Positions 49,253 to 51,294 of a stretch of DNA of 53,542 nucleotides are shown piece after piece. This DNA comes from Actinomycetota bacterium. GTDB taxonomy: Bacteria; Actinomycetota; Acidimicrobiia; Acidimicrobiales; AC-14. Under the pieces are notes generated by a model. It searched no databases and was not told the origin of the DNA. It saw only the letters and a program-made list of their open reading frames with translations. The stretch spans positions 80,349 through 133,890 of the forward strand of contig VAWU01000030.1 of the NCBI GenBank assembly GCA_005888325.1. Direction: 5' to 3'. The position numbers and the translations under genes are program-made. How positions within the stretch are numbered: position 1 is the first letter of the stretch; every line of letters begins with the position of its first letter.

Positions 49253-50299
49253 ATGTGGAACATCACTCTGCGGAACATCCAGTTCCGACGCCGTCAGTTC
49301 CTGATCGCGGTGGTGGGTACTGCACTGGTCTTCGGCATGGCCCTTCTCGTGACCGGCATTCGACAGGGCTTCGAGACCGAAGCCGACCGGATGCTCGGCG
49401 CCATGGGTGGCGACCACTGGGTCATCCGGGCCGGCGCCTCGGGACCGTTCACGGGGTTCGCACCGGTGGTGGCGCGTCTTGCAGACGACCTCGCCAGGGC
49501 CCCGGGAGTCCGTGAGGCGGACCCGGTCATCCTCTTTCCCCAGACCGTCGGCGAAGGTGTGCACGCCAGGACCGTCAACGTGGTCGGCCATCGCAAGGGG
49601 GGCTTCGGCGACCCCTCGCTCGTTGCCGGGCGACCCGCAACCGCCGAGGGTGACGCGGTCGTCGACAAGAAGCTCCACCTGCGAATCGGCGAGCGATTCG
49701 CCATGTCGGGCCGCAAGTTCAGGGTCGTCGGGCTCGTCGAGGGCCGGACGTACTTCGCGGGGACACCGACTGCCTTCTTGCGTCTCGAGGACGCCCAGGC
49801 ACTGTTGGGGGGCGGCCCACTCGCGACCTCGATCATCATGGAGGGAAGTCCGACCGTGACCGTTCCCGGCCTCAAGGTGCTGCCGTTGTCCGCGGTCAAG
49901 GCGGATCTGCTCAAACCGGTGCGCCAGGCCGAACAGTCGATCAACAAGGTGCGGCTGCTGCTGTGGCTGGTGGCCGCCATCATCGTCGGCGCGGTGATGT
50001 ACATGTCGGCGTTGGAGCGGGTGCGCGACTTCGCGGTTCTCAAGGCGGTGGGCGCCTCTTCGCGCGTACTCGTGACAAGCCTTGCGATCGAGGCGGTCAT
50101 TGCCTGCTTGGTCTCCGCGGCATTGGCCATCGGCGTGGCTCGACTGCTCCGACCGATCATCCCGCTACCGGTCAGCTACAGCGGGAGCGCGTACGCAGTC
50201 CTACCCGTCGTCGCGGTGATCGTGGGCGTGCTCTCCAGCCTCTCAGGCGTGCGCCGAGCGGTAAACACGGATCCCGCCGCAGCGTTCGCGGGGGCGTGA
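49253..50299 (+). CDS. ABC transporter permease, FtsX/MacB-like (4 TM with a large extracytoplasmic loop)
   Basis: RBS gggagg. TM1 is followed by a ~200-aa loop and then three C-terminal TM helices, the FtsX-like layout. Confidence 0.7.
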   Translation: MWNITLRNIQFRRRQFLIAVVGTALVFGMALLVTGIRQGFETEADRMLGAMGGDHWVIRAGASGPFTGFAPVVARLADDLARAPGVREADPVILFPQTVGEGVHARTVNVVGHRKGGFGDPSLVAGRPATAEGDAVVDKKLHLRIGERFAMSGRKFRVVGLVEGRTYFAGTPTAFLRLEDAQALLGGGPLATSIIMEGSPTVTVPGLKVLPLSAVKADLLKPVRQAEQSINKVRLLLWLVAAIIVGAVMYMSALERVRDFAVLKAVGASSRVLVTSLAIEAVIACLVSAALAIGVARLLRPIIPLPVSYSGSAYAVLPVVAVIVGVLSSLSGVRRAVNTDPAAAFAGA

Positions 50300-51294
50300 T
50301 GTCACACCTCGAGATCCGCGACCTCACCATCGAGTACACGCAGGGCGAGTACCTGGTGCGTCCCATCGACTCGCTGAACGTGGACGCGGACGACGGCGAG
50401 CTCGTCATCCTCCTCGGTCCGAGCGGGTGTGGGAAGACGACGCTCCTCTCCTGCCTGGCCGGCATCCTCACCCCCACGTCGGGCACCATCCGGCTCGGCG
50501 GCGAAGTGATCACGTCGCTGCACGGTTCGGCGCTGGCGGCCTACCGCCGGCACACCGTCGGCATCGTGTTCCAGGCGTTCAACCTGATCCCGAGCCTGAG
50601 CGCGCGTGAGAACGTGATGGCGCCCATGCGTCTGGCGGGCCTCGGGCTTCGGCAGGCCCGGCCCCGCGCCGAAGAGCTGTTGACGATGGTCGGGCTCGAG
50701 CAGCGCATGGACCATCGTCCCAAGGCACTCTCCGGTGGCCAGCAACAGCGCGTCGCGATCGCCAGGGCGCTGGTGCACGAGCCTTCGCTGGTCGTCGCCG
50801 ATGAGCCCACGGCACACCTCGACTACGTCCAGGTCGAGGAAGTGCTCCGCATCGTCCGGCGCCTGGCCGCGCCCGGACGGATGGTGGTGATCGCGACCCA
50901 CGACGAGCGCCTCATCCCGCTGGCCGACCGCACGATCGAGCTCTTGCCGAAGGGGGCACCGGTCGAGGAGCAGCCGCCCCAGCGCCTGCCCCTCGCGGCC
51001 GGACAGTTCCTCTTCACGCAGGGCGTTGCGAGCGACTTCGTCTATCTCGTCGACGAAGGCGAGGTCGAGCTCCTGCGCGACCGCGCGGACGGGACCAAGG
51101 AGACCGTGCGCGTGGTGGGCCCCGGCGGCTACTTCGGCGAGCTGGGTCCGCTCCTCGGCCTTCCGCGATCGGCGTCCGCGCGCGCTCGCACAGCGGCGAT
51201 CGTCACCGGTCACACGTCGCGCGAGTTCAAGCGGATCTCCCGACCCGAGGCGACTCAGCCCCTCACGTCGTCACCGGTGGACGACGGTCGTTGA
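50299..51294 (+). CDS. ABC transporter ATP-binding protein (MacB/LolD-type) with a C-terminal cyclic-nucleotide-binding domain
   Basis: Walker A is GPSGCGKTT, the signature is LSGGQQQRV, and Walker B is LVVADEPT. Then QFLFTQGVASDFVYLVDEGEVELLRD...GPGGYFGELGPLLGLPRSASARARTAAIV forms a cNMP-binding fold. Confidence 0.75.
   Translation: MSHLEIRDLTIEYTQGEYLVRPIDSLNVDADDGELVILLGPSGCGKTTLLSCLAGILTPTSGTIRLGGEVITSLHGSALAAYRRHTVGIVFQAFNLIPSLSARENVMAPMRLAGLGLRQARPRAEELLTMVGLEQRMDHRPKALSGGQQQRVAIARALVHEPSLVVADEPTAHLDYVQVEEVLRIVRRLAAPGRMVVIATHDERLIPLADRTIELLPKGAPVEEQPPQRLPLAAGQFLFTQGVASDFVYLVDEGEVELLRDRADGTKETVRVVGPGGYFGELGPLLGLPRSASARARTAAIVTGHTSREFKRISRPEATQPLTSSPVDDGR

What the first reader, a model, noticed from the sequence alone, without database searches (positions are those of the whole stretch)
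50299..51294. ABC transporter ATPase fused to a C-terminal cyclic-nucleotide-binding domain
After a complete NBD (Walker A, Q-loop, signature LSGGQQQRV, Walker B, H-loop), the last ~110 residues form a CAP-like cNMP-binding fold. It has the GxxFGELxLL...RSAxARA pattern typical of ligand-binding CAP domains. A second-messenger sensor attached directly to a transporter motor domain suggests cAMP/cGMP control of export.
Basis: partly seen in the sequence, partly recalled or inferred. Interest (0 to 1): 0.7.

Follow-up and report, generated by a model that had tools for sequence, protein, structure and literature searches.

The report
ABC ATPase with cyclic-nucleotide sensor tail
This gene encodes the motor subunit of a MacB-type ABC transporter with a small, probably cAMP-binding sensor domain at its end; the fusion is real, but it is common in actinobacteria, already noted in Mycobacterium tuberculosis, and never tested experimentally as far as I could find.

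Summary
Window 50299-51294 (+) encodes a 331-aa protein with a complete ABC nucleotide-binding domain (Pfam ABC_tran, 1e-34). A 14-residue proline-rich linker joins it to a C-terminal cyclic-nucleotide-binding (CNB) domain (Pfam cNMP_binding, 1.9e-16, above the curated cut-off).

AlphaFold models show an eight-stranded beta-roll. It superposes on cAMP-bound CRP/GlxR/CAP at about 2 Å. The phosphate-binding cassette (FGELGPLLGLPRSA) keeps the ribose-binding Glu and phosphate-binding Arg. Both are invariant in 40 homologues, and this cassette is the best-conserved part of the domain.

The domain is minimal: it has no N-terminal helix and no C-helix lid.

The motor belongs to the MacB/LolD/HrtA class (type VII). 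It is translationally coupled to a four-helix FtsX/MacB_PCD permease in every related locus with enough flank.

Related loci often carry other cNMP genes beside the pair: class III cyclases, CNB-patatin lipases, a CNB plus metallophosphoesterase operon. The window itself holds four CNB proteins within 12 kb.

It is not new. More than 240 homologue clusters share the architecture. M. tuberculosis Rv2563/64 and Rv0072/73 are described in the literature with the same parts.

Ligand, substrate and the effect on ATPase activity remain untested. This is a new member of a known but uncharacterised kind, of moderate to low interest.

The parts
50299..51294 (+). ABC ATPase with C-terminal CNB domain (331 aa); the finding itself
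   Evidence: Translation. Pfam ABC_tran + cNMP_binding. Full-length AF2 model with pLDDT 86.6.
50299..50943 (+). Nucleotide-binding domain, residues 1-215. Walker A 50416-50439, signature 50728-50754, Walker B 50788-50808, H-loop His 50899-50901.
   Evidence: Motif positions. Closest solved sequences and folds are MacB, MJ0796, LolD, YbbA and HrtA. NCBIfam best matches are DevA, FtsE, MacB and LolD, all below their cut-offs.
50944..50985 (+). Proline-rich interdomain linker, residues 216-229
   Evidence: Low sequence conservation (0.43), but only 1-2 residues of length variation among 40 homologues. Predicted non-regular, with pLDDT about 72-74.
50986..51240 (+). Minimal CNB beta-roll plus one short helix, residues 230-314
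   Evidence: DSSP strands and helix in two AF2 models. Foldseek top hits are MtbCRP+cAMP, GlxR+cAMP and CAP at rmsd about 2 Å over 85-92 columns. phmmer best hit is PKA RI-alpha CNB-A.
51133..51174 (+). Phosphate-binding cassette FGELGPLLGLPRSA, residues 279-292. Glu281 is at 51139-51141 and Arg290 at 51166-51168.
   Evidence: F279, G280, E281, R290 and A292 are invariant in 40 sequences. The PBC block has mean conservation 0.89, against 0.58-0.65 for the rest of the domain. It aligns with [13 protein letters not shown] of PKA RI-alpha.
51241..51291 (+). Variable, predicted-disordered C-terminal tail, residues 315-331
   Evidence: Conservation 0.21. pLDDT below 50 for residues 319-329. Tails differ in length and sequence among homologues, and some proteins end about 8 residues after the FKR motif.
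49253..50299 (+). Partner permease: 4 TM helices plus an extracytoplasmic domain of about 190 aa (FtsX + MacB_PCD). Its stop overlaps the ATPase start.
   Evidence: Pfam FtsX 3.9e-12 and MacB_PCD 2.8e-9. Hydropathy segments at 14-37, 229-257, 268-305 and 307-337. Closest solved chain over full length is HrtB 7w78_B. The gene is found immediately upstream in 11 of 12 genome loci and in all 7 metagenome places.
48941..49222 (+). Small LuxR/GerE helix-turn-helix protein, 30 nt upstream of the permease; possibly co-transcribed
   Evidence: Pfam GerE 1e-15. Not found near the homologues. No promoter-like site was found in 47900-52600, and the single terminator-like match (minus strand, about 49675-49692) is no more than shuffled sequence gives.
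51291..51893 (+). P-loop kinase-like protein (NCBIfam 'DNA topology modulation protein'). Its TTG start overlaps the ATPase stop.
   Evidence: NCBIfam NF005994 scores 199.7 bits against a cut-off of 215. Pfam AAA_18/AAA_33 matches are weak. Not conserved next to homologues.
52021..52494 (+). Stand-alone CNB protein, 157 aa
   Evidence: Pfam cNMP_binding 1.9e-9.
52498..53151 (-). Crp/Fnr-family transcription regulator (CNB + HTH_Crp_2)
   Evidence: Pfam cNMP_binding 1e-21 and HTH_Crp_2 1.8e-14.
53197..53541 (-). C-terminal end of a gene that runs off the window; weak class III cyclase similarity
   Evidence: Pfam Guanylate_cyc E 0.003, 17.6 bits, below the cut-off of 21.9, matching profile positions 79-156. 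Suggestive only.
41353..43335 (-). CNB + patatin-like phospholipase (659 aa), 6 kb upstream of the permease
   Evidence: Pfam cNMP_binding 2.6e-23 and Patatin 8.2e-32. It is 51% identical to the CNB-patatin gene that directly follows and overlaps the ABC-CNB gene in L085/L086. CNB-patatin genes also lie within 5 kb of the pair in L003, L008 and L011.

Best explanation
The gene pair 49253-51294 encodes a two-component type VII (MacB/LolCDE/HrtBA-like) ABC machine. The permease has four transmembrane helices and a large extracytoplasmic domain. The cytoplasmic ATPase carries a minimal cyclic-nucleotide-binding beta-roll at its C-terminus.

Shown: both domains are intact, the catalytic motifs are complete, the cassette residues that grip a cyclic nucleotide are invariant, and the two genes are translationally coupled and always occur together.

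Inferred: the beta-roll binds cAMP, the usual actinobacterial cyclic nucleotide. Occupancy then changes how readily the two ATPase subunits close on ATP, so the second messenger gates the mechanical cycle of the permease. This would parallel other C-terminal regulatory domains on ABC ATPases, such as the OpuCA CBS domains with c-di-AMP, MetN C2, MalK and ModC.

Because the domain has no C-helix lid or dimerisation helix, the signal probably passes through contacts of the cassette and the short final helix with the ATPase core or the partner subunit. It probably does not pass through a CAP-like helix movement.

The substrate is unknown. By analogy with solved type VII systems, it is more likely a membrane-embedded or extracytoplasmic molecule (a lipid, lipoprotein or amphiphile) than a cytoplasmic solute.
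For: - Domain calls above curated thresholds.
- All ABC motifs are present and invariant in 40 homologues.
- The AF2 full-length model has pLDDT 86.6 and the domain model 80.6, each with eight strands plus a cassette helix.
- Foldseek best hits for the domain are cAMP-bound MtbCRP, GlxR and CAP.
- phmmer aligns the cassette with PKA RI-alpha [13 protein letters not shown].
- The cassette is the most conserved block of the domain, 0.89 against 0.58-0.65.
- The ATPase is closest to MacB, MJ0796, LolD, YbbA and HrtA in sequence and fold.
- The permease has FtsX + MacB_PCD, a 4-TM topology, and a full-length match to HrtB.
- The permease-ATPase order with overlapping stop and start holds in all related loci.
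- cNMP genes sit beside homologous pairs. A cyclase-AAA_16 gene lies directly downstream in L081/82, L087 and L001. A CNB-patatin gene lies directly downstream in L085/86 and within 5 kb in L003, L008 and L011. L089 has an operon of CNB, metallophosphoesterase, permease and ABC-CNB. L088 has two CNB enzymes nearby.
- The window itself has four CNB proteins between 41.3 and 53.2 kb.
- There is precedent for a second-messenger domain on an ABC ATPase: OpuCA CBS domains bind c-di-AMP and inhibit carnitine uptake (PMC9293649).
Against: - No binding or activity data exist for this protein or, as far as the searched literature shows, for any family member.
- The domain lacks the lid that caps the base in most CNB domains, so affinity and specificity cannot be assumed.
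- A Pfam cNMP_binding domain on another ABC exporter (HetC) bound ppGpp rather than cAMP in vitro (PMC10986499).
- About a third of the sampled neighbourhoods show no other cNMP gene: L004, L007, L009, L010 and L083/84, and L090 apart from a cyclase-AAA_16-like gene with no cyclase domain call. I did not measure the background frequency of CNB genes in these genomes.
- The relative orientation of the two domains in the AF2 model could not be inspected, and pTM is only 0.70.
Confidence: 0.6

Rival explanations
1. The beta-roll is a sensor for a different small molecule, such as ppGpp or another nucleotide or metabolite, and not for cAMP/cGMP. The transporter is still ligand-gated.
For: The cNMP_binding domain of the ABC exporter HetC was not stabilised by cAMP or 2-oxoglutarate but bound ppGpp in vitro (PMC10986499). 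The domain here lacks the lid helix that normally completes the base pocket.
Against: The Glu and Arg that contact the ribose 2'-OH and the cyclic phosphate in PKA and CAP-type domains are invariant, and the cassette is the most conserved segment. Cyclases and a possible phosphodiesterase-type metallophosphoesterase are encoded next to homologous pairs.
Confidence: 0.15
2. The CNB-like domain no longer binds any ligand. It serves as a structural, dimerisation or partner-docking module on the ATPase.
For: The domain is truncated to a bare beta-roll. Some neighbourhoods have no other cNMP gene.
Against: A ligand-free scaffold would not be expected to keep exactly the cassette residues invariant while the rest of the roll drifts. 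Repeated adjacency to cyclases and CNB enzymes also argues against it.
Confidence: 0.1
3. The pair is a heme-detoxifying HrtBA-type exporter, since HrtB is the closest solved permease, with an added sensor domain.
For: HrtB (7w78_B) is the only solved chain that matches the permease over its full length (E 2.6e-14). HrtA is 40% identical to the ATPase core. The heme-ligand Glu219 of HrtB aligns with Glu227 here (role of Glu219 from PMC9271180).
Against: That Glu is kept only in the four closest relatives and is R, T, V, I or D in the other family permeases. HrtB His163, which stacks on heme, aligns with Gly170. No heme-responsive regulator gene was seen nearby.
Confidence: 0.05
4. It is the ATPase of a glutamine or polar amino-acid importer (GlnQ), as the M. 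tuberculosis homologues were historically annotated.
For: NCBIfam GlnQ, TcyN and ArtP models score 143-158 bits on the ATPase core. The review PMC7761784 repeats the GlnQ similarity.
Against: Those scores are far below the curated cut-offs, and DevA, FtsE, MacB and LolD models score higher. The coupled permease is FtsX/MacB_PCD with 4 TM, not an importer permease. No substrate-binding protein gene was found in the annotated genes around the pair. The same review notes that the membrane domains are MacB-like.
Confidence: 0.02
5. The transporter exports cAMP itself, and the CNB domain acts as the substrate-sensing site.
For: Mycobacteria secrete cAMP (stated in PMC3938503). The CNB domain would give substrate-coupled activation.
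Against: Solved type VII transporters have no transmembrane cavity for cytoplasmic solutes; this is stated for HrtBA in PMC9271180. The CNB domain hangs below the ATPase, far from the membrane domain. There is no direct evidence.
Confidence: 0.03

Closest known systems
Mycobacterium tuberculosis Rv2563/Rv2564 and Rv0072/Rv0073 (annotated 'glutamine-transport' ABC systems)
   Same: The literature describes the same parts. The permease has four helices plus an external domain of MacB type (PMC7761784). The ATPase carries PF00027 (Rv2564, PMC4886424). Rv2565, the next gene number and so presumably adjacent, also carries PF00027 (PMC4886424); that it is a CNB-patatin protein is from my own knowledge. 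The order permease, ABC-CNB, CNB-patatin is seen here in L085/86. Mycobacterium and Mycolicibacterium homologues of about 330 aa are 59% identical to the window protein.
   Different: I could not align the M. tuberculosis sequences directly, so orthology is inferred from architecture, length and mycobacterial relatives. In the window the CNB-patatin gene is 6 kb away and divergently oriented, and other genes follow the ATPase. No function is known for either system.
Type VII ABC transporters: MacB, LolCDE, FtsEX, YbbAP, HrtBA, BceAB
   Same: The ATPase core is the closest in sequence and fold, at 36-42% identity and rmsd 1.7-2.4 Å. The permease has FtsX + MacB_PCD domains and a 4-TM topology.
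   Different: None of the solved members carries a CNB domain, and every top PDB match stops near residue 215-226. No membrane-fusion or adaptor gene is adjacent here.
C-terminal regulatory domains of ABC importer ATPases: OpuCA CBS with c-di-AMP, MetN C2, MalK, ModC
   Same: A ligand-binding domain follows the ATPase core and tunes transport. For OpuCA the ligand is a nucleotide second messenger that inhibits uptake (PMC9293649).
   Different: The folds differ (CBS, ACT-like or TOBE rather than a CNB beta-roll). The ligands differ. The transporter class differs (importers with binding proteins). The comparisons with MetN, MalK and ModC rest on my own knowledge.
HetC and related cyanobacterial CNB-peptidase ABC exporters
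   Same: A Pfam cNMP_binding domain is fused to an ABC exporter and is needed for its function (PMC10986499).
   Different: In HetC the domain is N-terminal on a full-length PCAT-type exporter of a different ABC fold, and it bound ppGpp rather than cAMP in vitro.
CAP/CRP and PKA regulatory-subunit CNB domains
   Same: The beta-roll fold and the phosphate-binding cassette with its Glu and Arg.
   Different: The N-terminal helix and the long B/C helices (hinge, lid and dimer interface) are absent. Only an eight-residue helix follows the roll.

Membership tests
ABC ATPase (PF00005) | Walker A, Q-loop, LSGGQ signature, Walker B with catalytic Glu, and H-loop, all intact | tested here: met
   GPSGCGKT 40-47, Q92, LSGGQQQRV 144-152, LVVADEP 164-170, ATHD 199-202. 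All are invariant in 40 homologues. Pfam 120 bits against a cut-off of 25.
Type VII (MacB-class) ABC system | Partner permease with 4 TM helices and a large extracytoplasmic domain between TM1 and TM2 (FtsX + MacB_PCD) | tested here: met
   Pfam FtsX 46.7 bits and MacB_PCD 38 bits, both above their cut-offs. Hydropathy gives TM1 at 14-37 and three further segments between 229 and 337. Full-length match to HrtB.
Type VII (MacB-class) ABC system | ATPase core closest to MacB/LolD/FtsE-type ATPases rather than importer ATPases | tested here: met
   The PDB phmmer and Foldseek lists are headed by MacB, MJ0796, LolD, YbbA and HrtA. The NCBIfam list is headed by DevA, FtsE, MacB and LolD, though all are below their equivalog cut-offs.
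Type VII (MacB-class) ABC system | Mechanotransmission, meaning the substrate is taken from the membrane or periplasm and not from the cytoplasm | not testable with these tools
   Needs transport assays or structures.
Cyclic-nucleotide-binding domain (PF00027) | Profile score above the curated threshold | tested here: met
   60.2 bits against 27.5, residues 232-312, profile positions 4-84 of 89.
Cyclic-nucleotide-binding domain (PF00027) | Eight-stranded beta-roll with a short cassette helix between strands 6 and 7 | tested here: met
   DSSP on two AF2 models. Foldseek probability 1.00 to CRP, GlxR, CAP, PKA and SthK domains.
Cyclic-nucleotide-binding domain (PF00027) | Phosphate-binding cassette with a conserved Gly-Glu and Arg-(Ser/Thr)-Ala | tested here: met
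   FGELGPLLGLPRSA. G280, E281, R290 and A292 are invariant, and S291 is at least 90% conserved.
Cyclic-nucleotide-binding domain (PF00027) | Helical hinge and lid (B/C helices) that cap the base and transmit the signal, as in CAP, PKA, Epac and HCN | tested here: not met
   Only one 8-residue helix (307-314) follows the roll, and then comes a variable, low-confidence tail.
Cyclic-nucleotide-binding domain (PF00027) | Actual binding of cAMP or cGMP | not testable with these tools
   Needs ITC, thermal shift or a co-crystal.
Rv2564/Rv0073-type ABC-CNB ATPases of Actinomycetota | A protein of about 330 aa with an ABC core plus a C-terminal CNB, encoded directly after an FtsX-type permease gene | tested here: met
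   All 240 listed homologue clusters carry PF00005 + PF00027, nearly all at about 315-345 aa. Gene order is conserved in Acidimicrobiales, Solirubrobacteraceae and Mycobacterium loci.
Rv2564/Rv0073-type ABC-CNB ATPases of Actinomycetota | Direct sequence orthology to the M. tuberculosis proteins | not tested
The afdb50 library was unavailable. The link rests on PMC7761784, PMC4886424 and 59% identity to an uncultured Mycobacterium homologue.
HrtBA heme exporter | Heme-ligand Glu (HrtB Glu219) and stacking His163 conserved | tested here: not met
   Glu227 aligns with Glu219 in the window protein, but it is not conserved across family permeases. His163 aligns with Gly170.

The most novel reading that the evidence does not exclude
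The ABC-CNB pair is a cAMP-gated mechanotransmission machine. It works together with the repeatedly co-located cAMP-regulated patatin phospholipase to remodel or expel envelope lipids when local cyclases fire. Its lid-less beta-roll uses the ATPase core, or the partner subunit, as the missing lid. That would be a mode of CNB signal transmission not seen in CAP, PKA, Epac or HCN.
Probability: 0.15. Interest if true: 0.6.

Novelty: new member of a known kind. Interest (0 to 1): 0.3.

Why it matters
cAMP signalling is unusually elaborate in actinobacteria. M. tuberculosis has many cyclases and ten predicted cNMP-binding proteins (PMC3938503, citing McCue 2000), yet only a few effectors have a known job. 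From my own knowledge, two of those ten are ABC ATPases of this type, and their function is unknown despite a misleading 'glutamine transport' label.

This window does not change that picture. It does show that the fusion is old, widespread and under selection at the ligand site. It also shows that the pair tends to travel with cyclases and CNB-patatin lipases. That gives a concrete, testable hypothesis, cAMP-gated type VII ABC activity linked to lipid turnover, for the mycobacterial homologues.

Tried and rejected
- **Heme exporter reading.** The permease's only full-length solved relative is HrtB, and its heme-ligand Glu aligns with Glu227. That Glu is not conserved across the family, and the stacking His is absent. 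I rejected this as a family function.
- **GlnQ importer annotation.** I rejected it on permease type and model ranking.
- **Profile search with the CNB domain against 1.84 billion representatives.** The ranking was dominated by multi-CNB proteins. At 50% clustering only a few single-domain members of about 315-325 aa appeared, so it gave no useful family count.
- **Foldseek of the full model against afdb50**, meant to reach UniProt entries for Rv0073/Rv2564. The library was unavailable.
- **McCue et al. 2000.** The paper is not held, and literature searches found no experimental study of any ABC-CNB ATPase of this type.
- **Signals around the operon.** The scans gave no promoter-like site, one terminator-like match that is no more than shuffled sequence gives, and no Rfam match.
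- **Small ORFs in the 48.0-48.9 kb gap.** They have no Pfam match.
- **The longer ORF from GTG 49963.** I rejected it as the start, because it overlaps the permease in another frame and all homologues begin at the Met of 50299.
- **The long tails of the L007 and L009 proteins.** The L007 tail is Arg/Pro-rich low complexity and probably not real protein; I did not inspect the L009 tail.
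Full report
**Observation**

The ORF at 50299-51294 (+) begins with an ATG that shares its A with the TGA stop of the upstream gene. It ends at TGA 51292-51294 and encodes 331 residues. A longer ORF from GTG 49963 exists, but it overlaps the upstream gene in another frame. All 39 aligned homologues begin at the same Met.

Pfam finds ABC_tran at residues 24-172 (E 1.1e-34). It finds cNMP_binding at 232-312 (E 1.9e-16; 60.2 bits against a curated cut-off of 27.5).

**Structure**

A full-length AlphaFold2 model, built on a 40-sequence alignment, has mean pLDDT 86.6. After the ATPase core, which ends near residue 215, comes a non-regular proline-rich linker (216-229). A beta-roll follows, with strands at 230-232, 237-239, 248-253, 256-261, 267-273, 293-296 and 300-305. 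A short helix at 283-286 lies inside the cassette, and one eight-residue helix spans 307-314. The last 17 residues are of low confidence.

A domain-only model (pLDDT 80.6) gives the same topology. Its best Foldseek matches in the PDB are cAMP-bound M. tuberculosis CRP, GlxR with cAMP, Thermus CAP, E. coli CAP, the Bd1971 CNB domain, SthK and PKA regulatory subunits. These match at rmsd about 2-3 Å over 85-92 columns with probability 1.00.

By sequence, the closest solved CNB domain is domain A of PKA RI-alpha. Its cassette [21 protein letters not shown] aligns with GGYFGELGPLLGLPRSASARA. In PKA and CAP the Glu and Arg of this cassette contact the ribose 2'-OH and the cyclic phosphate, which is established knowledge of the family.

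**Conservation**

In 40 homologues of 60-90% identity, F279, G280, E281, R290, A292 and R295 are invariant. The cassette block (274-296) has mean conservation 0.89. The rest of the roll scores 0.65 and 0.58, the linker 0.43 and the tail 0.21.

The linker keeps its length to within 1-2 residues although its sequence drifts, which suggests a geometric constraint between the two domains.

The domain is minimal. It has no N-terminal helix before strand 1, and there is no long C-helix. Some family members end about eight residues after the conserved FKR motif. So the hinge-and-lid mechanism of CAP, PKA, Epac and HCN cannot apply as such.

**What kind of ABC system**

The ATPase core is closest to MacB, MJ0796, LolD, YbbA, HrtA, BceA and YtrE in sequence and in fold (36-42% identity, rmsd 1.7-2.4 Å). 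The NCBIfam ranking is headed by DevA, FtsE, MacB and LolD models, all below their equivalog cut-offs. No solved chain covers the CNB part.

The upstream gene (49253-50299) carries FtsX and MacB_PCD. It has one N-terminal hydrophobic segment, about 190 extracytoplasmic residues, and three further hydrophobic segments between residues 229 and 337. Its only full-length solved relative is HrtB of the Corynebacterium diphtheriae heme exporter (E 2.6e-14). This is a type VII, MacB-class system with separate permease and ATPase.

The HrtB heme ligand Glu219 (PMC9271180) aligns with Glu227 here. That Glu is kept only in the four closest relatives, and the stacking His163 aligns with Gly. I therefore do not propose heme as the family substrate.

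**Relatives and context**

All of the 120 best hits for the window protein carry PF00005 plus PF00027, and nearly all are 315-345 aa long. The same holds for the 120 best hits for an uncultured Mycobacterium homologue. NCBI names them only 'ATP-binding cassette domain-containing protein', from Mycobacterium, Mycolicibacterium and Mycobacteriaceae.

Full-length genomic relatives lie in Acidimicrobiales, Solirubrobacteraceae, other Actinomycetota and Mycobacterium.

The FtsX-type permease gene sits immediately upstream, usually with overlapping stop and start. This holds in 11 of 12 genome loci and in all seven metagenome places examined.

Beyond the pair, synteny is loose, but cNMP genes recur:
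- A 1100-aa class III cyclase-AAA_16 gene lies directly downstream in L081/82, L087 and L001, which are the closest relatives at 73-75% identity.
- A CNB-patatin gene overlaps the end of the ATPase gene in L085/86 and lies within 5 kb in L003, L008 and L011.
- L089 has an apparent operon of CNB protein, metallophosphoesterase, permease and ABC-CNB.
- L088 has PNPOx-CNB and CNB-aldehyde dehydrogenase genes within 5 kb.
- L004, L007, L009, L010 and the Mycobacterium-like L083/84 show none. L090 has only a cyclase-AAA_16-like gene with no cyclase domain call.

In the window itself, a CNB-patatin gene at 41353-43335 (-) is 51% identical to the L085 one. A stand-alone CNB protein lies at 52021-52494, and a Crp/Fnr regulator at 52498-53151 (-). 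A gene end with weak cyclase similarity lies at 53197-53541 (-), with E 0.003, below the cut-off.

I did not measure background frequencies, so this association is suggestive and not statistical.

**Mechanism**

Shown:
- The ATPase and the cassette are both intact.
- The ATPase is obligatorily paired with a MacB-type permease.
- Selection is concentrated on the ligand site.

Inferred:
- The roll binds cAMP, because actinobacteria chiefly make cAMP and cyclases sit next to the homologues.
- Occupancy modulates closure of the ATPase dimer, and hence the mechanical cycle of the permease. This would parallel C-terminal regulatory domains on other ABC ATPases. The best-documented second-messenger case is the CBS domain pair of OpuCA, where c-di-AMP inhibits carnitine uptake (PMC9293649).
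- Because the lid and dimerisation helix are missing, the output surface is probably the cassette plus the short final helix with its invariant Phe310. It would act on the ATPase core or the partner subunit.

Whether the ligand activates or inhibits cannot be said. The substrate is unknown. The recurring patatin lipase neighbour hints at lipids, and that is speculation.

**Comparison with known systems, and novelty**

The literature describes M. tuberculosis Rv2563/Rv2564 and Rv0072/Rv0073 as systems with four-helix, MacB-like membrane domains bearing an external domain. Their function is uncertain and non-essential, and they are mislabelled as glutamine transporters (PMC7761784). Rv2564 and Rv2565 are listed with PF00027 (PMC4886424). 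Ten cNMP-binding proteins were predicted in M. tuberculosis as early as 2000 (PMC3938503, citing McCue et al.). That two of them are these ATPases is from my own knowledge.

I could not align the M. tuberculosis sequences directly, so orthology is inferred. HetC of Nostoc shows that a cNMP_binding domain on an ABC exporter can matter in vivo and yet bind ppGpp rather than cAMP in vitro (PMC10986499). That keeps a non-cNMP ligand as a live rival.

I found no experimental study of any ABC-CNB ATPase of this type.

**Verdict**

But it is a further member of a large, database-visible and functionally uncharacterised actinobacterial family, and so not a new architecture. Interest is 0.3.

Noticed in passing
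window 41353-43335 (-): A 659-aa protein with cNMP_binding (130-216) plus a patatin-like phospholipase (382-539). From my own knowledge this is the architecture of M. tuberculosis Rv2565. It is 51% identical to the CNB-patatin gene that overlaps the end of the ABC-CNB gene in L085/L086. The lipase and the transporter may form a recurring cAMP-controlled module.
   Followed up: partly
window 48060-48212 (-): A stretch on the minus strand encodes 51 residues that are 63% identical to the extreme C-terminal tail of the 1532-aa PD40/PKD-repeat protein (43372-47970, +). It lies just past that gene's stop and faces it. It looks like a remnant of a second, convergent paralogue.
   Followed up: partly
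window 43372-47970 (+): A giant 1532-aa predicted secreted protein with many PD40 (WD40-like beta-propeller) repeats and PKD/Ig-like domains sits between the CNB-patatin gene and the LuxR-permease-ATPase genes.
   Followed up: no
window 4076-7461 (-): A STAND-type AAA_16 protein is 36-38% identical to the cyclase-AAA_16 genes that lie directly downstream of ABC-CNB in L081 and L087. Here it is split into two overlapping ORFs (6196-7461 and 4076-6469), which suggests a frameshift, and its N-terminal part gives no cyclase hit at E below 1e-6.
   Followed up: partly
L089 4883-7969: An apparent four-gene operon with overlapping stops and starts: solo CNB protein (114 aa), metallophosphoesterase, FtsX/MacB_PCD permease, ABC-CNB ATPase. 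The metallophosphoesterase could be a cNMP phosphodiesterase; I did not test this.
   Followed up: no
window 53197-53541 (-): A gene running off the window end has weak similarity to the class III cyclase catalytic domain (Pfam E 0.003, below the cut-off). It lies next to the Crp/Fnr regulator and the solo CNB gene.
   Followed up: partly
window 51291-51893 (+): A P-loop kinase-like gene (NCBIfam 'DNA topology modulation protein', 199.7 bits against a cut-off of 215) starts with a TTG that overlaps the ABC-CNB stop codon. It is not conserved next to the homologues.
   Followed up: partly
window 22005-23603 (-) and L085 13046-14662 (-): A Phosphoesterase-family (PF04185) gene occurs in the window and also a few kb from the ABC-CNB/CNB-patatin pair in L085/L086. 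This may be coincidental.
   Followed up: no
window 39487-41386 (+): A second, unrelated ABC system (ABC_tran ATPase plus ABC-2 membrane protein) lies just upstream of the CNB-patatin gene.
   Followed up: no
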